Assembly: GCA_937921685.1 (NCBI GenBank)
Contig: CAKZUF010000020.1
Location: forward strand, 52 to 64,051
Direction of reading: 5' to 3'
DNA length: 64,000 nucleotides
Source of the DNA: an uncultured archaeon
GTDB lineage: Archaea; Thermoproteota; Nitrososphaeria_A; Caldarchaeales; Calditenuaceae
Shown here: positions 10,439-42,232 of the stretch, in pieces
How positions within the stretch are numbered: position 1 is the first letter of the stretch
How the letters are laid out: the number at the start of each line of letters is the position of its first letter
Made by a program: the position numbers and the translations under genes
Notes under the pieces: model-generated
Databases searched by the model: none
Seen by the model: the letters and a program-made list of their open reading frames with translations, nothing else
Told to the model about the DNA's origin: nothing

Positions 10439-10720
10439 ATGGCGGCCGAGATTGGAAGAATAGTGGTGAAGGTTGCGGGGCGCGACGCCGGTCTAAAAGG
10501 CGTTGTTGTGAACGTCGTAGGAGGCAACCGGGTACTAGTGACAGGGCCGCCGAGCCTCACAGGGCTCAGGAGGCGGAACGTAAACATCCTCCACATCCTG
10601 CCAACACAGTACAGAGTCGAGGTGAAGCGGGACGCGAGTGACGAGGAAGTTGTCAAGGCCCTCGAGGAGAGCGGGCTTATCGACTACATGAAGAGGAGGG
10701 CTGAGATATCAAGGTGGTAG
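10439..10720 (+). CDS. rpl14e: 50S ribosomal protein L14e
   Basis: KOW-type sequence 'EIGRIVVKVAGRDAGLKGVVV'. The start could instead be 10427. Confidence 0.8.
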   Translation: MAAEIGRIVVKVAGRDAGLKGVVVNVVGGNRVLVTGPPSLTGLRRRNVNILHILPTQYRVEVKRDASDEEVVKALEESGLIDYMKRRAEISRW

Positions 10721-11771
10721 GCATACTCTTGCGGCACAGCGTCACCCCTTGGCCCGCCGAGCGAGAATTCGTGACAATTAAGGAGGCGGAAACAGACCCT
10801 CGTTACGGTTCAAGACCTGAAGACCGCCCAATCCACGACCTCCTCAACTACGGCTACGTCCCCTTGGACAAGCCTCGCGGCCCCACCAGCGGCGAGATAA
10901 CCGAGCGGGTTAGAAGACTGCTGGGAGTTGAGAGGGCCGGGCACGGCGGGACCCTAGAGCCCCGATGGGTGGGGGAGATCCCGCGGTCTCCGGGCTGCTT
11001 CCAGTCCTACTAGGAAGCGCTACCAAAGCCTCCGCAGAAATCCACACCTACCCGAAGGAGTACGTCTGCCTACTTAGGCTCCACGGAGATGTCGACGACG
11101 ACGCCCTCGAATGGGGGCTCTCACAGTTCATTGGAGAGTTCTATCAGACTCCACCAGTAAGATCCAACGTGGCCAGACAGGTCAGGAAAAAGGAGCTGTT
11201 CGAGGCAGAGGTGCTGGAGAGGGATGGGCGAGACGTCCTCTTAAGAATGATCGTGAGCGGCGGCACATACGTCCGTAAGCTCTGCCACGACTTGGGACTG
11301 GTCTTGGGTGTTGGAGCCCACATGGTTGAGCTGAGGCGTGTACGGATAGGCCCTAAGTCCGAGAGGGAGGCGGTCACAATCCAGCAGCTCCAGCGCGCAG
11401 CCTGGCAGTTCAGGGAGTGCGGGGATGAGAAGGGACTGCGGAGCCTCATAAGACCCATCGAAGAGCTCCTCGAATACATACCTAGAATAGTAGTCCTCGA
11501 CTCCGCCGTCGACGCCATCTGCCATGGCGCACCCCTAGCCAAGCCCGGAGTCGCACAAGCCGAGACAAGAATATCCAGAGGCGCAACAATTGGAATCTAC
11601 ACACTCAAGGGCGAAATAGTCGCAATAGCCAAAGCACTAAAATCCACGGAAGAAATACTGAGAGAAGAAGGAATCATAGCTAAGACCGACAGAGTCTTCA
11701 TGACACGCGGCACCTATCCTCCAAGATGGGGGAAGGGAAAATCTAAAACAAGCCAGCACACAAGATATTAG
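10714..11771 (+). CDS. cbf5: tRNA/rRNA pseudouridine synthase Cbf5 (TruB family); the coding sequence is join(10714..10957,10978..11771), interrupted by a 20-nt BHB intron
   Basis: Two overlapping ORFs in different frames (10714..11013 and 10965..11771) together give the full Cbf5. Removing 20 nt restores the conserved 'GHGGTLDPAVSGLLPV' motif. Confidence 0.85.
10958..10977 (+). other. 20-nt bulge-helix-bulge (BHB) pre-mRNA intron in cbf5
   Basis: Outer helix GGGA(10948-51)/UCCC(10979-82); 3-nt bulges AGA/AGA; central helix CCCU(10952-55)/GGGG(10972-75). The exact boundary is ambiguous by +/-1 nt because of AG repeats. Confidence 0.7.
11736..11755 (+). promoter_or_regulatory. Candidate promoter element (A/T-rich TATA-like) for tRNA-Ser(GGA), lying inside the cbf5 3' end. 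It is duplicated at 42047..42066.
   Basis: The 20-nt sequence 'GGAAAATCTAAAACAAGCCA' occurs 19-20 nt upstream of both tRNA-Ser genes. Confidence 0.45.
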
Positions 11772-11774
11772 CGG

Positions 11775-11860
11775 GCCGGGGTGGCAGAGAGGTCAATGCG
11801 CAGGCCTGGAGAGCCTGTGGCCCAATTCGGGCCGCGAGGGTTCGAATCCCTCCCCCGGCG
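11775..11860 (+). tRNA. tRNA-Ser(GGA), class II, no encoded CCA
   Basis: Acceptor GCCGGGG/CCCCGGC, anticodon loop CUGGAGA, long variable arm GGCCC-AAUUC-GGGCC, T-loop TTCGAAT. Confidence 0.9.
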
Positions 11861-12195
11861 TAACATGTAATATGGCGGTGCAGGTTTAAACACTGATATC
11901 ATATTGGTTATGAGGGGTGGATATGGTCGGGACCTTCGATTCCTTTCTGGATTCAAGAGAGTGGCGGGCTATACCGCATATTTTCTCACTATGCATAAGT
12001 AGGCCGGGAGTGTGAATGGCTTTTGGGGGAGGGTCTCGCCAGCTGAGCAAGAATACGGTGTAGCCCTAAGACTGAAACGTGTGAATGGTTTTAGCCCAAA
12101 CATTGGTATAGGGGTTTTTAATACCGAGAAGCCTCGAAAACGGTTACGCGTCTCCTTACTCGAACGTATTTTAGGTTGAGGAAAGGGCTGCGTTT

Positions 12196-12636
12196 GTGGG
12201 GTTGGCTGACAGGGCCTCGCTCTACCTCGTCATGACACTTGCGTTGTTGGGTGCCGAGGAGGGTGTAGCATTCGCGAGGAAGGTTGGAGCAGACTTTTCG
12301 GACTGTGATTTAAAATCTCTAAAGGCTTCCAGCGTACGGATGGACTATGACCCGGTAACCCGTAGCCTGTTGCCGAAAGCCATATCTCAATTCTATCAAG
12401 AGGCAGGGTTCGAGGCTCTGGAAGAGCCGGACAGTCTTGTGACCATGTTCGCATTCATGGCGCAGCTTGCGAGACAGGGTGGCATAGACTCTCTAAAAAT
12501 ACAGCACAGATTTCTTAGAGTCCATCTAATCCCAACACTGGCTTATGCAGTAGAGGTATGCAAGGGATTGAAACCATTCCTACAGATAGTTTCAGAGGAT
12601 GCCGACGACCTCAAACAAATACTAACAAAAAAATAG
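12196..12636 (+). CDS. TorD/DmsD-family molybdoenzyme maturation chaperone (redox enzyme maturation protein)
   Basis: 146 aa. 'EEPDSLVTMFAFMAQL' matches the TorD 'EPxDH...EFM' core. It lies directly upstream of the Tat-dependent molybdoenzyme genes. Confidence 0.55.
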   Translation: MGLADRASLYLVMTLALLGAEEGVAFARKVGADFSDCDLKSLKASSVRMDYDPVTRSLLPKAISQFYQEAGFEALEEPDSLVTMFAFMAQLARQGGIDSLKIQHRFLRVHLIPTLAYAVEVCKGLKPFLQIVSEDADDLKQILTKK

Positions 12637-12662
12637 CATACATTGATGTAAAATTGCGTAAC

Positions 12663-12686
12663 TATACAAAATCATAAATTTGTATA
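12663..12686 (+). promoter_or_regulatory. Perfect 8-nt inverted repeat TATACAAA-N8-TTTGTATA in the A/T-rich leader of the molybdoenzyme operon; candidate operator overlapping the TATA region
   Basis: Seen directly in the sequence. A second inverted repeat, TTGTG-N3-CACAA, lies at 12698..12710. Confidence 0.35.
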
Positions 12687-12754
12687 AACTATAACTATTT
12701 GTGTGGCACAAGGTATTTAACACGGATTTACAAAGTCTTCTTGGTGCTAGATGA

Positions 12755-13471
12755 ATGAACAATAATCAGAATGATTGTTATAATTATGCTGTAACGCGGC
12801 GTGACTTTGTTAAAAAGCTGGTGGCCTCTGCTACTGTTTCACCCATAGTATTAGGGGGGTTCTCCGGGTCTGCTGAGGCGCGTGGTGGTCGCAGGTGGGC
12901 CATGTACATCGATGTTGCCAAGTGTTATGGCTGTATGGCTTGCGTGGCGGCATGTGCGGCTGAGAATAACGTGCCAATAGGATCTTTCAGGACTCGGGTG
13001 GAGAGACATACACTCTACGATGGTGTTACGGCATTTGTCCCAATGCAGTGTAACCACTGTGTAAACCCATCCTGCGTCGAGGCTTGCCCCACAGGTGCCA
13101 TGCACAAGGGTGAAGATGGCCTCATACTTCTAGATCCTAATCTCTGTATCGCGTGTGGCGCGTGTATTCAGGCCTGCCCCTACAAGGCTGTATTTTTCAA
13201 CCCCATCAAGGGCATTCCCGACAAATGTACATTCTGCAATCACAGGATATATCAGGGTAAACTACCAGCATGTGTGGAAGTTTGCCCGACTGGGGCCAGA
13301 GTGTTTGGGGACCTTAACGACCCCAACTCTGAAATAGCCAAAATCCTGGCTAGGACGCCGACGCAGAGGCTTGGGAGGGCTACCGGAAACGAGCCGCAGA
13401 TCTATTATAGAATGGCCACTGGGGTCGTGCCGGAGATATACTACTATAAAAGGGGGAGGGGGAGCGTATGA
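12755..13471 (+). CDS. Molybdoenzyme electron-transfer subunit with 4x[4Fe-4S] (DmsB/PsrB-like) and a Tat signal
   Basis: Twin-arginine motif 'TRRDFVKKLVASA' and four Cys clusters (CxxCxxCxxxC(P)). Its stop overlaps the start of the next gene (ATGA). Confidence 0.85.
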   Translation: MNNNQNDCYNYAVTRRDFVKKLVASATVSPIVLGGFSGSAEARGGRRWAMYIDVAKCYGCMACVAACAAENNVPIGSFRTRVERHTLYDGVTAFVPMQCNHCVNPSCVEACPTGAMHKGEDGLILLDPNLCIACGACIQACPYKAVFFNPIKGIPDKCTFCNHRIYQGKLPACVEVCPTGARVFGDLNDPNSEIAKILARTPTQRLGRATGNEPQIYYRMATGVVPEIYYYKRGRGSV

Positions 13472-16400
13472 GTGCGAAAATCGATAGGAGAGAGTGCATA
13501 AAGGGCGGCGTAGCAACGGCGTCGCTTGCGGCTCTCCTAGTGGGGAACTGGGAGGCTGTAGACAGAATCATAAGACCCAAGGGGGAAAACTACGGCCCAG
13601 ATCCGCTGTACGGCGAGAATGTCAGGTACGTAAATACGTCCTGTCTAGGTTGTAACGTTAGATGCGGCATCACGGCACGTGTAGTGAGATACGGCGACAC
13701 CGAAGTTGTGGAGAGGATTGAGGGCAATCCATACCATATCTACAACAGAGCAGTGTCTTTTGAGAAACAGACTGAGAGATACGCCCCCCTTCCATATCAC
13801 ACACCCATTAAGGAAGCGATAGAGAGGTGGAGCGGAACGATATGCGCTAGAGGTGTCGACGGCATACATTACGTTTACGACCCCTACAGAGTCATTAAGC
13901 CCTTGAGGAGGGCTGGCCCTAGGGGTAGCGGCAAGTGGAAAGTAATAACTTGGGACGAATTAATCAAATATGTAACCGATGGTTGCGAAATTCCGGAAAC
14001 TGGAGAAAAGCTACCTGGACTCAAGGAATTCTTCACCTATGGCAGGTTGAGAGACGCCGGTTTCGAAGACCCCAACAAAATACTGTCAGAGATGAAGAAA
14101 GACATTGATGCCATTATATCTGTGGCTAAAGATGGTAAAAAGACTTATGACGAGCTTGTGAAATCCATAGAAGATTTCAAAACCAAATGGAGTAAGATTC
14201 TAGGTGAGAAGGGGGTAAGACTTGAAGATATACTGATAGACCCGGACAGGCCTGAATTAGGTACCAAGGCCAACATGGTGGTTTGGCTTAGAGGTAGAGG
14301 TCAAGACAACGCAGATATATTCTACAGGAGGTGGTTGTTTGCTCTAGGAAGTGTCAACTGGGCAAGACATACCTCGTCATGTCAATTAGGTTACTATGCT
14401 GGCAACTACCTCTGGTCTGGCTACTACGACATAAATCCCGACCAGAGCGCCAAAGTTCTCATAATGGCTGGTACGGAGATGGCAAGGATTCACCCCGGGG
14501 CGACGGGTCAAGGTCTCCTTATAGAGAAAGCCGCCAACGGCGAGTTGAAAATCTACTGGGTCAACCCATTGGCTCCAAGGACTCCTGCTAGAGGCAACAT
14601 TATCTGGGTGCCGGTGAAGCCTGGTGAAGATGGTGCTCTGGCTTTCGCCATGATCAGGTGGATTCTGGAGAACAAGCGATATGATGAGGCACTCCACTCG
14701 GCGCCAAACGCAGAGGCTGCTAAGAAGCTAGGCTATCCATACAGCAGTAATGCCACCTGGCTAGTGATCGTGGAGGAGGGTCATCCAAGATTTGGCGAGT
14801 TTCTAAAAGCCAAAGACATAGGGCTGGAAGACTCCGACAAATACGTGGTGTGGACTGGTGAAGGGTTTGCAGTATACGACGCGGTTGACAAAGCTGAACT
14901 CCTCTTCGAAAGCCGTGTTACGTTGGCTACTGGAGAAGTTGTAACTGTGAAAACGCCGTTCAAGATCCTTTATGATGAATCCCTAAGTCATAGTTTTGAA
15001 GAATGGGTAGCAGTCGCAAGCCCCTACGAGCGCGGCACTCCGGAGTTTACAAACTATGCCAAGACTGTGGAAGCAATGATTAGGGACTTTGTGGATGCCG
15101 CACCCATGTCTGCAACGTATCTCCACAGGGGTGTCTCTATGCATCCAAACGGGGAATACATAGTTTGGGCATACAGGACTTTAGACATTCTTATCGGCAA
15201 CTTCCACAGGAAGGGAGGTTTGCTGGGGCGGCCATCCACGACGAGCTATAACTCGCACCTGTATGATCTCAGAGATTCTGGTTTTGGTCAGCCAGTGAGG
15301 TGGGGGCCACCGATAGACAGACACAAGTACAGCTATGAAGATACTCTAGAGTACTGGCTTAGAGTTAAGCAGGCTATAAAGGAGGGCAAGAGTGGTAAGG
15401 AAGCAGTCAAGGCCGCGTTTCCAACGAAGAGGCCTTGGTTCCCCAACACGCCTGAGGAGATATATTCAGAGTTATTTGCCGGGATTGCTGAAAGGTATCC
15501 ATACCCGATAGGTGTTTTGATACTCTTTTACGCAAACCCAGTCATATCTGCCAACTACGGCCTCAAGTTTGTTGAAGTGCTTAAAGACACCAAGAAACTA
15601 CCTCTGTTTATAGGAATTACAACGACGATAAACGAGACCTATCTATACGCCGACTTTATCGTGCCTGATACGACGTACTTGGAGACCGGGCTTAGCGGGG
15701 TCCAGTTCCTGTATGCGGGCGGGCTCGGATACGTCAGAGCCGAGTCGTGGCGTTCCCCCGTCATAATGCCTCTTACACAGCAGATAGGCACATGTCCAAA
15801 CGGACACCCAAGGTATGCCTCCATGTGGGAGTTCCTCATAGACGTGGCTAAGACTTTAAAGATGCCGGGCTACGGTGAAAAGGCGTTCCGAGGCGTCGCC
15901 GAGAAAAAGTATGAGGGGCAATGGTTTGCCATGCACTGTTTCTGGGAATACATCATGAGAGTATACGCCAACGGCGCGCTACATGCCAAAGACCTCAAAA
16001 TAATACCCGAGAACGTGCCGGACGAGGAGGTGCGGTTTGTGGAGAGGAACTACCCCATTGCACAGTTCAGAGACATACTGCCGCCAGAGGAGTGGAGGTA
16101 CGTTGCCTATGCACTCGCTAGGGGTGGCGTCTTTACGAGATATGAAGACTCTTTCGATGAGAAGGGTTGGTCAAAGAGGTCTGTGCCAGGAGATAAGATT
16201 CTCAAGCTTTGGAACGATAAGCTGGCTAAGACTCGGAATAGCGTTACTGGAGAGAAGTTCTATGGAGGGCCTAAATACTTCCCACCGGCAACCTATGCCC
16301 CCGCCGCTCAGGCGCCTGAGAAGAGGGACAAGTGGCTTCCAGGCACGCCCTTGAGACAGATCTACAGGAAGGAGGAGTGGCCGCTAACACACGTATTCAG

Positions 16401-17181
16401 CTCCGGGCCTCTATTCACAAAACACAGAAGCCAGTTCTACTACTGGCTGAAGCAAATGATGCCAGAGAACTTCGTGGTGCTGAATCCCTTGGACGCAGCT
16501 AAGGCCGGCGTAGAGACTGGAGACATTGTCAAGATGGAGACTCCTTGGGGGTCTCTAGAGGCTCCGGCAGTGGTATCTCCCCTAGTTGCGCCAGGAGTGC
16601 TGTATATTCCCTATGGGATGGGTAGGTGGGTTGAAACGGTTGTATCTAAGCCCAAATTTGAGGCGAGGGGTTTCGAGAACTTCACCCAAGAGCTTCCAGA
16701 AAAGGTGGAAATACCTGAAGAGGCTGTGAACCCTGTGAGACATCTGCCTGCGCTTGCGAAGAAAATATTGTTTACCAAGAGCCCGGCAGAGTATTATGAG
16801 GGTGGCCTATCAGTCGACAGGTGGAGATTCAGTGGTATCACATCAAATCCCATACAGGCTACAGATCCATCGCTGGACAACTGGCCGATGGTGAGTTGGA
16901 TAGGTGGAGGCCAAGCATACTTCGACACCCCGGCACGTGTAGTCAAGACTGGAAAGAGGCACGAATTCGAGGGGCTCAGCGTCGAGTTTCATGAATATCC
17001 ACTACCTGAACCACCAACTTCACAAATAGGCTTAAATCTCTGGAAGAGGTTCAAACATGAATTCACCAAACCATTCATCTATGCCGCATCGACTGTAGCC
17101 CTTATACTAGGGATAGCTCACATTGTGAAGGAGAGGAAGGCCAGAAAAGCCTCTATCAAGGAGGTGGAGAGAAATGGCTGA
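13468..17181 (+). CDS. Molybdopterin oxidoreductase catalytic subunit (DMSO reductase/CISM family), unusually long with a C-terminal TM helix; substrate unknown
   Basis: 1237 aa. Tat motif 'DRRECIKGGVATASLAALL', N-terminal FeS0 motif 'CLGCNVRCG', and a hydrophobic C-terminal segment 'FIYAASTVALILGIAHIV'. Confidence 0.75.
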   Translation: MSAKIDRRECIKGGVATASLAALLVGNWEAVDRIIRPKGENYGPDPLYGENVRYVNTSCLGCNVRCGITARVVRYGDTEVVERIEGNPYHIYNRAVSFEKQTERYAPLPYHTPIKEAIERWSGTICARGVDGIHYVYDPYRVIKPLRRAGPRGSGKWKVITWDELIKYVTDGCEIPETGEKLPGLKEFFTYGRLRDAGFEDPNKILSEMKKDIDAIISVAKDGKKTYDELVKSIEDFKTKWSKILGEKGVRLEDILIDPDRPELGTKANMVVWLRGRGQDNADIFYRRWLFALGSVNWARHTSSCQLGYYAGNYLWSGYYDINPDQSAKVLIMAGTEMARIHPGATGQGLLIEKAANGELKIYWVNPLAPRTPARGNIIWVPVKPGEDGALAFAMIRWILENKRYDEALHSAPNAEAAKKLGYPYSSNATWLVIVEEGHPRFGEFLKAKDIGLEDSDKYVVWTGEGFAVYDAVDKAELLFESRVTLATGEVVTVKTPFKILYDESLSHSFEEWVAVASPYERGTPEFTNYAKTVEAMIRDFVDAAPMSATYLHRGVSMHPNGEYIVWAYRTLDILIGNFHRKGGLLGRPSTTSYNSHLYDLRDSGFGQPVRWGPPIDRHKYSYEDTLEYWLRVKQAIKEGKSGKEAVKAAFPTKRPWFPNTPEEIYSELFAGIAERYPYPIGVLILFYANPVISANYGLKFVEVLKDTKKLPLFIGITTTINETYLYADFIVPDTTYLETGLSGVQFLYAGGLGYVRAESWRSPVIMPLTQQIGTCPNGHPRYASMWEFLIDVAKTLKMPGYGEKAFRGVAEKKYEGQWFAMHCFWEYIMRVYANGALHAKDLKIIPENVPDEEVRFVERNYPIAQFRDILPPEEWRYVAYALARGGVFTRYEDSFDEKGWSKRSVPGDKILKLWNDKLAKTRNSVTGEKFYGGPKYFPPATYAPAAQAPEKRDKWLPGTPLRQIYRKEEWPLTHVFSSGPLFTKHRSQFYYWLKQMMPENFVVLNPLDAAKAGVETGDIVKMETPWGSLEAPAVVSPLVAPGVLYIPYGMGRWVETVVSKPKFEARGFENFTQELPEKVEIPEEAVNPVRHLPALAKKILFTKSPAEYYEGGLSVDRWRFSGITSNPIQATDPSLDNWPMVSWIGGGQAYFDTPARVVKTGKRHEFEGLSVEFHEYPLPEPPTSQIGLNLWKRFKHEFTKPFIYAASTVALILGIAHIVKERKARKASIKEVERNG

Positions 17182-17839
17182 ACTAGAAAGGGTCGTCAGG
17201 TGGGATAGGCTCGCACGCGCGATACACTGGTTGTTTGTCGTAAGTGTCGGCATCGGAATAATAACAGGGTTGCCTACCTTAGATGGTGAAAGGTTTAATG
17301 CATTGATTTATCTGGTTGGAGGGCGAGAGCTACGGGCAGTTCTTCACCACTACTTCATTACAGCGGCGCTGAGCGCGGCTTTCGTCCTTATACTGATCAG
17401 GTTCGCTATAGTTGTCAGAAGGCCCCTTGAGGAGACTGGGGAAGAATGGGTACCTACAACCAAAGATTTCAAAGACTCACTAACAATAGCCCTGAACTGG
17501 CTCGGATTCAAAAGGCCGAGGCCGCCGATAGGATTCCACCACCCTCTAGAGAAATACTACATCCACATAATGCATCTTGGATTGCTGCTACTTGGTATAA
17601 GCGGGATACCGCTAGCATTCTTAGACGTAGGGCCGTACAGGTGGTTGCTCCTGCTGACCCACGACCTAGGACTGGTAATTCTGATACCTCCTCTCGTAGG
17701 ACACATAATGCTTGCTGTAAACCCTGTCAACTGGGAAACATTGAAAGCGGTATTTATCGATGGTAAAGTTTCAGTCGCGTGGGCTAAAAAACACCATCCA
17801 GCATGGAAGGTAACAATAACTACTAAAGAAGAAAAATAA
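17174..17839 (+). CDS. Di-haem cytochrome b membrane anchor (FdnI/HybB-like)
   Basis: 221 aa with about 5 TM helices and conserved His residues in the TM helices (HWLF, LHHYF, HIMHLG, VGHIM). It overlaps the catalytic subunit gene by 8 nt. Confidence 0.6.
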   Translation: MAELERVVRWDRLARAIHWLFVVSVGIGIITGLPTLDGERFNALIYLVGGRELRAVLHHYFITAALSAAFVLILIRFAIVVRRPLEETGEEWVPTTKDFKDSLTIALNWLGFKRPRPPIGFHHPLEKYYIHIMHLGLLLLGISGIPLAFLDVGPYRWLLLLTHDLGLVILIPPLVGHIMLAVNPVNWETLKAVFIDGKVSVAWAKKHHPAWKVTITTKEEK

Positions 17840-17985
17840 ACTAAAAGTTCAGCTGCAAAACAACGGTACACAACATATTTGGCAGAAGCGTGAGATTGCG
17901 CACTCCCAAAAACAGAAGAAGCCAATCCACCAAACCCCTGCCTATTTCCCCCAAACCCCCTCAACACCCATTTGTAACATAAAAA

Positions 17986-18078
17986 TGCGGCGGGCGGGAT
18001 TTGAACCCGCGACCCCCAGCGTGGCAGGCTTCCACGCAGCTTTGTGCTTGGTGTCCTACCAGGCTAGACTACCGCCGC
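17986..18078 (-). tRNA. tRNA-Gly(GCC) with a 19-nt intron (18030..18048) at non-canonical position 29/30; no encoded CCA
   Basis: Removing the intron gives a mature 74-nt tRNA: acceptor GCGGCGG/CCGCCGC, anticodon stem CCAGC/GCUGG, loop CUGCCAC, T-loop UUCAAAU. ORF 17985..18167 overlaps it and is spurious. Confidence 0.85.
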
Positions 18079-18103
18079 TTCAATGTTTGTGGGGTTTGGC
18101 CTG

Positions 18104-18111
18104 TATAAAAA
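18104..18111 (-). promoter_or_regulatory. TATA box (TTTTTATA on the minus strand) 26 nt upstream of tRNA-Gly
   Basis: The spacing and sequence fit a canonical archaeal promoter. Confidence 0.5.
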
Positions 18112-18189
18112 TTCTAGAGCTGGTTGGTGGTGCTGAGGGGTTGTCATGTTTATTTGTTTGGGGTTAATGGGGGTTTTCGGTGCTTGGGT

Positions 18190-42086: not shown

Positions 42087-42172
42087 GCCGGGGTGGCAGA
42101 GAGGATAATGCGCAGGCCTTGAGAGCCTGTGGCCCACTTCGGGCCGCGAGGGTTCGAATCCCTCCCCCGGCG
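42087..42172 (+). tRNA. tRNA-Ser(UGA), class II, no encoded CCA
   Basis: It is nearly identical to the tRNA at 11775..11860 apart from the D-loop, anticodon loop (CUUGAGA) and variable loop. Confidence 0.9.
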
Positions 42173-42232
42173 CACCTTGTAGACAGTCTGGCTGTGTCCG
42201 TCTTCTCGGAAAACTCGCCATTATTTCGACGT

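What the first reader, a model, noticed from the sequence alone, without database searches (positions are those of the whole stretch)
17986..18078. tRNA-Gly(GCC) carries a 19-nt intron inside the anticodon stem (position 29/30), hidden under a spurious 60-aa ORF
The 93-nt minus-strand gene only folds as a tRNA if 19 nt (18030..18048, 'AGCACAAAGCUGCGUGGAA') are removed. That yields a perfect anticodon stem CCAGC/GCUGG, loop CUGCCAC with U33 and A37, variable loop GGGUC and a canonical T-arm. The intron is not at the canonical 37/38 site. Its 3' part pairs with exon-2 loop nucleotides (GCGUGG/CCACGC), placing the 3' splice site in a 7-nt loop, i.e. a relaxed bulge-helix-loop-type substrate. This is typical of Thermoprotei but easy for tRNA finders to miss. 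A canonical TATA box (TTTTTATA) sits 26 nt upstream.
Basis: partly seen in the sequence, partly recalled or inferred. Interest (0 to 1): 0.6.

Follow-up and report, generated by a model that had tools for sequence, protein, structure and literature searches.

The report
Intron-split glycine tRNA gene, archaeal type
This is a real glycine tRNA gene interrupted by a 19-base intron in its anticodon stem, an already well-known kind of archaeal tRNA intron that is also present in related hot-spring archaea, so it is correct but ordinary.

Summary
Window 17986..18078 (-) is a tRNA gene, and removing 18030..18048 gives a perfect 74-nt tRNA-Gly(GCC).

The splice junction at position 29/30 is supported by comparison, not only by folding:
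- Intron-less orthologues carry exactly the predicted junction.
- Nine further distinct orthologous genes have an intron at the same site.
- Their exons are 72-74/74 identical, while the intron interior varies in length and sequence.

- The organism is a Calditenuaceae/Caldarchaeales ("Aigarchaeota") archaeon, not a member of Thermoprotei.
- The likely substrate is a near-canonical bulge-helix-bulge (BHB) motif. The D-arm 3' strand pairs with the intron 3' end and with anticodon-loop bases. It is not the proposed GCGUGG/CCACGC hairpin.
- Free-energy folding prefers a register shifted by 3 nt, so the BHB form is inferred, not shown.

The TATA box is confirmed and conserved. The 60-aa ORF is spurious. 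Position 29/30, non-canonical introns in Aigarchaeota and their broad-specificity endonuclease are all published, so interest is low.

Seen in passing and more interesting: the cbf5 gene at 10714..11771 carries a 20-nt BHB intron in the catalytic Asp codon. That is the position of the crenarchaeal cbf5 intron. Public gene calls miss it.

The parts
17986..18078 (-). tRNA-Gly(GCC) gene, 93-nt precursor coding region; no encoded CCA
   Evidence: Rfam RF00005 at 49.3 bits. ARAGORN. The spliced product is a perfect cloverleaf. Orthologues found.
18049..18078 (-). Exon 1 (tRNA positions 1-29): acceptor 5' strand, D-arm, A26, C27 C28 A29
18030..18048 (-). 19-nt intron AGCACAAAGCUGCGUGGAA at position 29/30
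   Evidence: Deleting it restores stem CCAGC/GCUGG. Intron-less orthologues read ACCAGCCUGCCACGCUGG at this point. Same-site introns of 16-23 nt occur in relatives.
17986..18029 (-). Exon 2 (tRNA positions 30-73): G30 C31, anticodon loop CUGCCAC, 3' stem, variable loop GGGUC, T-arm, acceptor 3' strand, discriminator A73
18055..18061 (-). BHB outer helix h, 5' strand UGGUAGG (D-loop and D-stem 3' strand); pairs with 18022..18028
   Evidence: 7/7 pairs in all 10 aligned genes, but invariant, so no covariation.
18051..18054 (-). BHB central helix H, 5' strand ACAC (positions 24-27); pairs with GUGG at 18032..18035 (3 pairs plus an A.G mismatch)
   Evidence: Rule-based scoring gives 3/4 here. It gives 4/4 in L035 (GUGU) and L028 (ACGC/GCGU).
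18048..18050 (-). 5' bulge B1 = C28 A29 | A(intron 1); predicted cut after A29
   Evidence: The rule 'cut after the 2nd base of each 3-nt bulge' comes from PMC2738675. It was calibrated on 32 canonical introns of the same gene family, with H 4/4 in 30.
18036..18047 (-). Inner hairpin h': GCA (18045..18047) pairs with UGC (18036..18038); loop CAAAGC
   Evidence: Compensatory changes at two pairs across orthologues (G-C/A-U/G-U/C-G and A-U/C-G/U-G). Stem length is 3-6 bp.
18032..18035 (-). BHB central helix H, 3' strand GUGG (intron bases 14-17)
18029..18031 (-). 3' bulge B2 = A A | G30; predicted cut before G30
   Evidence: In L011 and L039 the intron ends in U, which fixes the junction at 29/30 unambiguously.
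18022..18028 (-). BHB outer helix h, 3' strand CCUGCCA (positions 31-37)
18099..18117 (-). Promoter block CTAGAATTTTTATACAGGC. TATA box TTTTTATA is at 18104..18111; the purine-rich BRE-like CTAGAA is at 18112..18117
   Evidence: The block is conserved at a fixed distance from the tRNA 5' end in L020, L044, L039, L011, L027 and L035, while the surrounding spacer diverges.
17981..17985 (-). T5 run directly after the discriminator base; probable transcription stop
   Evidence: Read from the sequence. Its function is inferred from the known oligo-T termination of archaeal RNA polymerase.
17985..18167 (+). Mechanical 60-aa ORF antisense to the tRNA and its promoter; spurious
   Evidence: No Pfam match. 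Not called as a gene in the 99.9%-identical contig L067. In L044 and L020 only the part overlying the tRNA and promoter is conserved; the start codon and the C-terminus differ.

Best explanation
The locus is a functional tRNA-Gly(GCC) gene of a Calditenuaceae (Caldarchaeales, 'Aigarchaeota') archaeon. A 19-nt protein-spliced intron interrupts it between tRNA positions 29 and 30.

Proposed mechanism:
1. Transcription starts a few nucleotides upstream of G1, from a conserved BRE/TATA promoter, and ends at the T-run after A73. The start and stop sites are inferred.
2. In the precursor the D-arm 3' strand and A26-C27 leave the cloverleaf. UGGUAGG pairs with CCUGCCA (outer helix h). ACAC pairs with the intron 3' segment GUGG (central helix H, with one A.G mismatch). 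The intron forms a small hairpin h'.
3. This gives an hBHBh' motif with two 3-nt bulges, CA|A and AA|G. This fold is inferred from geometry and comparison.
4. The archaeal splicing endonuclease, the (alpha-beta)2 type reported for Aigarchaeota, cuts after the second base of each bulge. An RtcB-type ligase joins A29 to G30. The 19-nt intron is released, probably as a circle, and CCA is added. This step rests on established knowledge and was not tested here.

What is shown: the gene, the junction and the conservation of the intron. What is inferred: the substrate conformation and the enzymology.
For: - Rfam tRNA hit at exactly these coordinates.
- The spliced product is a perfect 74-nt cloverleaf with U33, A37, anticodon GCC, A73, C2:G71 and G3:C70.
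- Only the 28/29 and 29/30 deletions (identical product) give a 5/5 stem with a proper loop.
- Intron-less orthologues L010, L017, L036, L054 and L055 are 72/74 identical to the predicted mature tRNA and read ACCAGCCUGCCACGCUGG. They score 65.8-69.3 bits against 47-52 bits for intron-bearing genes.
- The same-site intron occurs in L044, L020, L035, L039, L011, L027, L057, L062, L066 and L028. Exons are 72-74/74 identical where lengths allow the comparison (L028 and L035 not reported), although flanking DNA is only 66-87% identical. Intron interiors differ in length (16-23 nt) and sequence.
- Helix h' shows changes on both sides at two pairs. Covariation exceeds all 500 shuffles and all slid controls.
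- The BHB cut rule was calibrated on 32 canonical introns of the same gene family, with H 4/4 in 30. It picks 29/30 here with H 3/4, h 7 and h' 3. L035 and L028 reach 4/4.
- Only 5 of 20000 shuffled introns do as well.
- The promoter block is conserved.
- Literature: 29/30 is a listed non-canonical site (PMC4090602). C. subterraneum has non-canonical BHB introns and a heterotetrameric endonuclease (PMC3082918, PMC3293823, PMC5829648). Cuts fall between the 2nd and 3rd bulge residues (PMC2738675).
- A second BHB intron, in cbf5, lies 7 kb away in the same window. This suggests the splicing system acts on non-standard substrates in this genome.
Against: - There are no RNA data. Splicing, the exact cut sites and the fate of the intron are not observed.
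- The BHB register is not the predicted free-energy minimum. A register shifted by 3 nt (CCA/UGG) is 5.7 kcal/mol more stable at 37 C, and RNAalifold also chooses it.
- Helix H has an A.G mismatch in 8 of the 10 aligned genes.
- Helices h and H are almost invariant, so covariation cannot choose between the two registers. The L028 change fits both.
- No endonuclease or ligase gene was identified in the window. Their presence rests on literature for the phylum.
- Ten sequences from one clade is a small sample, and relatedness inflates the shuffle controls.
Confidence: 0.88

Rival explanations
1. Same gene and same junction, but the endonuclease substrate is the first reader's relaxed bulge-helix-loop. 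The intron 3' part GCGUGG pairs with exon-2 CCACGC, and the 3' splice site sits in a 7-nt hairpin loop.
For: The hairpin exists and is stable (-8.7 kcal/mol). Its pairs are compatible in all orthologues if the second intron is assumed to be removed first (98% of cells paired). It lets the D-arm stay folded.
Against: - No pair changes on both sides.
- It competes with helix h', which does covary.
- It leaves the 5' site in no defined bulge. The two sites are not 4 bp apart on opposite strands, so it does not fit the BHB/BHL geometry described in PMC6379350.
- In 6 of the 9 distinct genes aligned for this test, the canonical intron follows A37 and replaces the CGC partner.
- L035 (GUGU) breaks one of its pairs, whereas the same change creates a pair in the BHB model.
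Confidence: 0.06
2. Same gene and same junction, but the precursor is recognised in its minimum-energy fold. That fold has CCA(27-29)/UGG, a 3x3 internal loop and an A.G mismatch. It would be a strongly relaxed motif without a 5' bulge.
For: This is the minimum-energy fold at 37, 70 and 85 C and the RNAalifold consensus. 96% of cells are paired. (alpha-beta)2 endonucleases accept relaxed motifs (PMC6379350, PMC3241643).
Against: - Applying the fixed 4-bp, two-bulge ruler to this register would put the 5' cut after intron base 2-3 and give a non-functional exon join. This is my own geometric argument.
- The G-to-U change in L035 and L028 breaks C27:G in this register but makes A24:U in the BHB register.
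- 30 of 32 canonical introns of the same gene family obey the strict rule.
Confidence: 0.12
3. The gene is a tRNA-Leu(CAA) with a long variable arm, or with an intron at 40/41, as ARAGORN calls it by default.
For: ARAGORN default output. A 19-nt deletion at 40/41 also gives a 5/5 stem, CCAAG/CUUGG, with anticodon CAA.
Against: - The loop would be CACAAAG, with A33 instead of the universal U33.
- The 'anticodon' segment varies in length and sequence among orthologues, while CUGCCAC is invariant.
- The acceptor stem, discriminator and all other arms equal those of intron-less tRNA-Gly(GCC) genes.
Confidence: 0.01
4. The intron lies in the anticodon loop (18 nt at 33/34, as ARAGORN -i reports) or at the canonical 37/38 site.
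For: ARAGORN -i output.
Against: - That product is 75 nt with an A.G mismatch in the anticodon stem.
- Deletions at 33/34 to 37/38 give only 3/5 stem pairs, and from 33/34 on also lack U33.
- Intron-less orthologues have stem CCAGC.
- Relatives that do have a 37/38 intron have it in addition to the 29/30 intron.
Confidence: 0.01
5. The locus is a decaying pseudogene, and the insertion is not removed.
For: No expression data are available.
Against: - Exons are 100% identical to those of species whose flanking DNA is only about 66-71% identical.
- The promoter is conserved.
- The BHB elements are conserved while the loop is free to vary.
- Archaeal genomes normally carry one gene per anticodon (statement in PMC3293823).
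Confidence: 0.02

Closest known systems
Non-canonical BHB introns of crenarchaeal, especially Thermoproteales, tRNA genes (Marck & Grosjean 2003; Sugahara et al. 2008; reviewed in PMC4090602, PMC4033280)
   Same: A short protein-spliced intron lies outside 37/38, flanked by a bulge-helix-bulge motif built partly from exon sequence. Position 29/30 is explicitly listed among known sites. Relatives carry it together with a canonical intron.
   Different: The host is a Calditenuaceae/Caldarchaeales archaeon, not a member of Thermoproteales. I could not check whether tRNA-Gly(GCC) at 29/30 is in existing catalogues such as GtRNAdb.
Caldiarchaeum subterraneum intron-containing tRNAs, e.g. tRNA-Thr(GGU) with introns at 24/25 and 45/46 (PMC3082918, PMC3293823)
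   Same: Same order-level lineage. Non-canonical positions, BHB at the junctions, and a heterotetrameric endonuclease is reported.
   Different: A different tRNA and a different position. Caldarchaeum tRNA-Gly(GCC) genes in my sample are intron-less or carry 37/38 or about 46/47 introns instead.
Split tRNA-Ala genes of Caldivirga maquilingensis, broken at 29/30 (cited in PMC4090602)
   Same: Same break point in the anticodon stem, and the halves are processed by the same BHB machinery.
   Different: Those are trans-spliced from separate genes. Here the two exons are contiguous in cis.
Crenarchaeal cbf5 pre-mRNA BHB intron (Watanabe 2002; PMC2738675). This concerns the item noticed in passing.
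   Same: The cbf5 gene of this window has a 20-nt insert between the 1st and 2nd letter of the catalytic Asp codon, with a relaxed (hBH-type) BHB. That is the position described for Desulfurococcales and Sulfolobales.
   Different: It is found here in Calditenuaceae. PMC2738675 lists Thermoproteales, Cenarchaeum, Nitrosopumilus and Korarchaeum as lacking the intron, and its sample contained no Aigarchaeota.

Membership tests
tRNA (Rfam RF00005), isoacceptor Gly(GCC) | Match to the tRNA covariance model above the gathering score | tested here: met
   49.3 bits against a threshold of 29, E 1.5e-07, full model 1-71 with a 30-nt local skip in the anticodon arm.
tRNA (Rfam RF00005), isoacceptor Gly(GCC) | Complete cloverleaf after intron removal: 7-bp acceptor, 4-bp D stem, 5-bp anticodon stem, 7-nt loop with U33 and R37, 5-bp T stem with UUCAAAU loop | tested here: met
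   The 74-nt product has all stems paired (one G-U in the D stem). ARAGORN calls it Gly(GCC).
tRNA (Rfam RF00005), isoacceptor Gly(GCC) | Orthology to uninterrupted tRNA-Gly(GCC) genes | tested here: met
   72/74 identity to the intron-less genes L010, L017, L036, L054 and L055; 74/74 to the predicted spliced products of L011, L044 and L057.
tRNA (Rfam RF00005), isoacceptor Gly(GCC) | Mature, aminoacylated tRNA present in the cell | not testable with these tools
   No RNA data are available.
Archaeal BHB (bulge-helix-bulge) intron, substrate of splicing endonuclease EndA | Two 3-nt bulges on opposite strands separated by a 4-bp helix at the exon-intron borders (PMC6379350) | tested here: met
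   B1 = CA|A and B2 = AA|G. H = ACAC/GUGG has 3 pairs plus an A.G mismatch here, and 4/4 in L035 and L028. This is a near-canonical rather than strict motif, and it is not the minimum-energy fold.
Archaeal BHB (bulge-helix-bulge) intron, substrate of splicing endonuclease EndA | Cuts between the 2nd and 3rd bulge residues give the functional exon join (PMC2738675) | tested here: met
   The rule reproduces the A29|G30 junction seen in intron-less orthologues. It was calibrated on 32 canonical introns of the family, with H 4/4 in 30.
Archaeal BHB (bulge-helix-bulge) intron, substrate of splicing endonuclease EndA | Flanking helices h and h' supported by comparison | tested here: met
   h' has compensatory changes at two pairs. 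h is 7 bp and 100% paired but invariant.
Archaeal BHB (bulge-helix-bulge) intron, substrate of splicing endonuclease EndA | A broad-specificity endonuclease ((alpha-beta)2 or epsilon2) and an RtcB ligase encoded in the genome | not tested
   Only 64 kb of the genome is available, and no such gene was looked for systematically. The literature reports (alpha-beta)2 EndA in Aigarchaeota (PMC5829648, PMC3082918).
Archaeal BHB (bulge-helix-bulge) intron, substrate of splicing endonuclease EndA | Excision observed (spliced tRNA, free or circular intron) | not testable with these tools
   No RNA data are available.
   The GCGUGG/CCACGC hairpin puts the 3' site in a loop, but its helix pairs intron with downstream exon. 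The 5' site is not in a bulge 4 bp away. The hairpin also conflicts with the covarying helix h'.
Canonical 37/38 tRNA intron | Insert immediately 3' of position 37 | tested here: not met
   CUGCCAC is contiguous in the window. A 37/38 deletion gives a 3/5 stem and no U33. Relatives L011, L027, L035, L039, L057, L062 and L066 have a separate 37/38 intron in addition.

The most novel reading that the evidence does not exclude
The 29/30 intron may be more than a passive insert. Its productive BHB can form only by unfolding the D-arm, and it competes with a more stable register that hides the 5' site. Splicing could therefore act as a folding or temperature checkpoint for tRNA-Gly maturation. In relatives with two introns it would impose an obligatory order, 29/30 first and 37/38 second. 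In those genes the outer helix of the 37/38 motif is only 2-3 bp while the 29/30 intron is present, against 5-7 bp in single-intron genes. The intron, together with the cbf5 intron 7 kb away, would mark a lineage-specific and long-maintained expansion of BHB introns in Calditenuaceae.
Probability: 0.12. Interest if true: 0.4.

Novelty: new member of a known kind. Interest (0 to 1): 0.22.

Why it matters
For annotation:
- A default bacterial-mode tRNA finder mislabels this gene as tRNA-Leu(CAA). A genome annotated that way would seem to lack tRNA-Gly(GCC).
- The comparative set shows that one tRNA gene in Caldarchaeales and their relatives has been hit by introns at six or more positions (25/26, 29/30, 37/38, 38/39, 40/41 and about 46/47). 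This adds a data point for the known dynamics of intron gain and loss outside Thermoproteales.

Biologically the finding itself is expected.

The by-product matters more. A BHB intron sits in the catalytic Asp codon of cbf5 in Calditenuaceae and is missed by public gene calls. If it is homologous to the crenarchaeal intron, the origin of that intron moves well before the Desulfurococcales/Sulfolobales ancestor. As of a 2020 paper (PMC7714728), the cbf5 intron was the only BHB intron reported inside an archaeal coding sequence. If it is not homologous, the site is a recurrent insertion hot-spot.

Tried and rejected
- ARAGORN default and -i modes both gave wrong structures.
- An Rfam scan at E<=1 found no further tRNA-like or other RNA families in the window.
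- tRNA-Leu(CAA), 33/34 and 37/38 intron placements were rejected by enumerating all 19-nt deletions and by orthologues.
- Covariation could not separate the BHB register from the 3-nt-shifted register. Both score alike, and the L028 change fits both.
- Exact-protein look-ups for two window proteins found nothing.
- No att-like direct repeats flank the 6.1-kb segment next to the tRNA.
- Marck & Grosjean 2003 (PMC1370505) is not held in the library. The BHB definition and cut rule were therefore taken from PMC6379350 and PMC2738675.
- I did not scan all window proteins for EndA or RtcB. The chance of finding them in 64 kb is low.
- I did not test whether the 29/30 intron is related in sequence to the canonical intron of the same gene in relatives (intron transposition). 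By eye only the functionally constrained ends look alike.
Full report
OBSERVATION. The minus strand of window 17986..18078 reads GCGGCGGUAGUCUAGCCUGGUAGGACACCA-AGCACAAAGCUGCGUGGAA-GCCUGCCACGCUGGGGGUCGCGGGUUCAAAUCCCGCCCGCCGCA. The Rfam tRNA model matches exactly these coordinates at 49.3 bits (E 1.5e-07) and skips 30 nt in the anticodon arm. Removing the 19 nt at 18030..18048 gives a 74-nt sequence that fits the standard cloverleaf with every stem paired. It has loop CUGCCAC (U33, A37, anticodon GCC), variable loop GGGUC and discriminator A73, and ARAGORN calls it tRNA-Gly(GCC). I enumerated all 18 possible 19-nt deletions within the 36-nt anticodon-arm region. Only 28/29 and 29/30 give 5/5 stem pairs with U33 and R37, and these two give the same product because of a repeated A. 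A 37/38 deletion gives a 3/5 stem and no U33.

WHAT TOOLS DO WITH IT. ARAGORN in its default mode calls the gene tRNA-Leu(CAA). With introns allowed it finds Gly(GCC), but it places an 18-nt intron at 33/34, which leaves a 75-nt product with an A.G mismatch. An Rfam scan at E<=1 finds no other hidden tRNA in the window.

COMPARATIVE EVIDENCE FOR THE JUNCTION. I scanned one genome per species with a pattern that allows 0-30 extra bases on either side of the anticodon. This returned 61 tRNA-Gly(GCC) loci. A metagenome scan with a narrower pattern, specific for the ACCA|A 5' junction, added five. All 67 genes, the window's included, resolve to a perfect anticodon arm and T stem once the inserts are removed.
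- Twenty-three have no intron. Those closest to the window (L010, L017, L036, L054, L055) are 72/74 identical to the predicted mature tRNA and read ACCAGCCUGCCACGCUGG across the predicted junction.
- Fourteen genes (ten distinct) have an insert at 29/30: the window, L044, L020, L035, L039/L065, L011, L027/L063, L057/L064, L062, L066 and L028.
- Their predicted spliced products are 72-74/74 identical to the window's where the lengths allow the comparison (L028 and L035 are not in the identity list). The flanking DNA is only 66-87% identical.
- The intron interior differs in length (16-23 nt) and in sequence.
- In L011 and L039 the intron ends in U, which fixes the junction at 29/30 without ambiguity.
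- Intron-less orthologues score 65.8-69.3 bits against the tRNA model. Intron-bearing ones score 47-52 bits.
Invariant exons with a variable insert that has conserved ends are the expected signature of a spliced intron. This excludes the Leu(CAA), 33/34 and 37/38 readings.

ORGANISM. The window is 87% identical over 7.5 kb to a Nitrososphaerota MAG (L044), 85% to 'Archaeon HR02' (L020) and 83% to L035. NCBI names HR02 'Candidatus Calditenuaceae archaeon HR02'. That family belongs to Candidatus Caldarchaeales, the former Aigarchaeota. A contig from run ERR9287632 is 99.9% identical to the window and carries the identical tRNA gene. The lineage is therefore not Thermoprotei.

SUBSTRATE STRUCTURE. 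The BHB motif is two 3-nt bulges separated by a 4-bp helix (PMC6379350), with cuts between the second and third bulge residues (PMC2738675). I coded this as a rule and calibrated it on the 32 canonical 37/38 introns in my own sample. The central helix (positions 32-35 with intron bases -6 to -3) is 4/4 paired in 30 of them and 3/4 in 2. Applied to the window, the rule selects 29/30 and gives these elements:
- outer helix h: UGGUAGG/CCUGCCA, 7 bp (D-loop and D-stem 3' strand with positions 31-37);
- central helix H: ACAC (positions 24-27) with GUGG, 3 pairs plus an A.G mismatch;
- bulges C28 A29|A and A A|G30;
- inner hairpin h': GCA/UGC.
L035 (GUGU) and L028 (ACGC/GCGU) have 4/4 in H. Only 5 of 20000 shuffled introns do as well at this junction. 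On a padded alignment of the ten distinct genes, h' shows changes on both sides at two pairs (G-C, A-U, G-U, C-G and A-U, C-G, U-G). The covariation score exceeds all 500 shuffles and all slid controls. The sample is small and the sequences are related, so the shuffle numbers are indicative only.

COMPETING FOLDS.
It shows no two-sided change and uses two bases of the covarying h' helix. It defines no environment for the 5' site. In 6 of the 9 genes of the first alignment the canonical intron interrupts it.
- The free-energy minimum is a third structure. It keeps the same h and h', but the 5' strand is slipped by 3 nt (CCA/UGG). It is 5.7 kcal/mol more stable than the BHB register at 37 C, and RNAalifold also chooses it.
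- Covariation cannot separate the two registers, because ACACCA and GUGG are nearly invariant and the L028 change fits both.
I prefer the BHB register for two reasons. Only that register places both cuts, under the fixed two-bulge ruler, at the bonds that give the conserved mature tRNA. And the G-to-U change in L035 and L028 makes a pair in it but breaks one in the slipped register. This preference is an inference. I put it at about 0.7-0.75 given that the gene and junction are right.

EXPRESSION SIGNALS. The block CTAGAATTTTTATACAGGC (18117..18099) is conserved at a fixed distance from the tRNA 5' end in L020, L044, L039, L011, L027 and L035, while the spacer to the tRNA diverges. This supports a BRE/TATA promoter and a very short leader. 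A T5 run follows A73. CCA is not encoded.

THE 60-aa ORF. It is antisense to the tRNA and its promoter and has no Pfam match. It is not called as a gene in the near-identical contig L067. In L044 and L020 it keeps only the residues that overlie the tRNA and the TATA block, with different start codons and different C-termini. It is spurious.

COMPARISON WITH WHAT IS KNOWN.
- Non-canonical BHB introns are well described, and position 29/30 is explicitly listed (PMC4090602).
- C. subterraneum has 13 intron-containing tRNAs with non-canonical positions, BHB junctions and a heterotetrameric endonuclease (PMC3082918). Its tRNA-Thr(GGU) has introns at 24/25 and 45/46 (PMC3293823).
- (alpha-beta)2 EndA is conserved in Aigarchaeota (PMC5829648).
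- tRNAscan-SE 2.0 searches for such introns by default (PMC8450103).
The finding is therefore a new member of a known kind.

In relatives with both introns, the outer helix of the 37/38 motif is only 2-3 bp while the 29/30 intron is present, against 5-7 bp in single-intron genes. This fits ordered removal, with 29/30 first.

SEEN IN PASSING.
(a) The cbf5 gene at 10714..11771 is split into two mechanical ORFs in different frames.
- Removing 10958..10977 (AGCCCCGAUGGGUGGGGGAG) joins ...AGHGGTL|DPAVSGLLPV....
- The 345-aa product aligns without a gap to M. jannaschii and P. abyssi Cbf5 across the catalytic motif (E 1.8e-93).
- The junction falls between the first and second letter of the catalytic Asp codon. 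PMC2738675 places the crenarchaeal cbf5 intron there.
- The BHB rule gives H = CCCU/GGGG (4/4), h of at least 6 bp, and bulges AG|A and AG|A.
- Relatives have inserts of 19, 19, 16, 16 and 17 nt at the same place. L070 shows an exon C-to-U change matched by an intron G-to-A change in H.
- Every database homologue at or above 64% identity is a truncated exon-2-only call. Every homologue at or below 56% identity is full length.
- I found no paper reporting this intron outside Crenarchaeota.
(b) The 6.1 kb between tRNA-Ser(GGA) and tRNA-Gly (11866..17985) is a molybdoenzyme operon. It is absent from that position in L044, L020 and L027.

VERDICT. The gene and the junction are right. The substrate model and the taxon need correction. 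The finding is ordinary for this lineage.

Noticed in passing
window 10714..11771 (+); intron 10958..10977; relatives L044:6356-7403, L020:947-2000, L027:1629-2664, L068/L069:1260-2289, L070:1196-2220: The cbf5 (H/ACA pseudouridine synthase) gene is split by a 20-nt BHB-type intron between the 1st and 2nd letter of the catalytic Asp codon (GGTL|DP). This is the position of the crenarchaeal cbf5 pre-mRNA intron (PMC2738675). The spliced 345-aa protein aligns without a gap to solved Cbf5 structures (E 1.8e-93). H = CCCU/GGGG is 4/4 and the outer helix is at least 6 bp. Inserts of 16-20 nt occur at the same site in five relatives, with one exon/intron compensatory change (L070). All public gene calls at or above 64% identity are exon-2-only truncations. 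I found no report of this intron outside Crenarchaeota. It deserves its own evaluation.
   Followed up: partly
window 11866..17985: A 6.1-kb segment lies between the convergent tRNA-Ser(GGA) and tRNA-Gly(GCC) genes. In relatives L044, L020 and L027 the two tRNA genes are 0.1-1 kb apart, so the segment is absent from that position there. It encodes a molybdoenzyme operon: a NarJ/TorD-like chaperone, a 4x[4Fe-4S] subunit with a Tat-like leader, a 1237-aa Mo-bisPGD catalytic subunit and a cytochrome b561-type anchor. GC is slightly lower than in the flanks (0.47-0.52 against 0.54-0.59). There is no integrase and there are no att-like repeats. The same arrangement is present in contig L067 (ERR9287632).
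   Followed up: partly
loci L001-L066 (tRNA-Gly(GCC) genes of Nitrososphaeria, Caldarchaeales and other archaeal MAGs): The same tRNA gene carries introns at six or more positions in different lineages: none (23 loci), 37/38 (32), 29/30 (14), 25/26 (6, H = UAGG/CCUA), 38/39 (2), about 46/47 (4, Caldarchaeum spp.) and 40/41 (1). Thirteen genes carry two introns. In genes with both 29/30 and 37/38 introns, the outer helix of the 37/38 motif is only 2-3 bp until the 29/30 intron is removed. This suggests ordered splicing.
   Followed up: partly
window 11775..11860 (+) and 42087..42173 (+): The two tRNA-Ser genes (GGA and UGA) are nearly identical apart from the anticodon and a few variable-arm bases. 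Sequence upstream of both matches the same L044 segment, which suggests a local duplication.
   Followed up: no
window 18079..18183: The tRNA-Gly promoter shares a 105-nt intergenic region with a divergently transcribed ABC-transporter ATPase gene. That gene is called from 18184 in L067, not from the upstream TTG at 18124. The A/T-rich TATA element could serve both directions.
   Followed up: no
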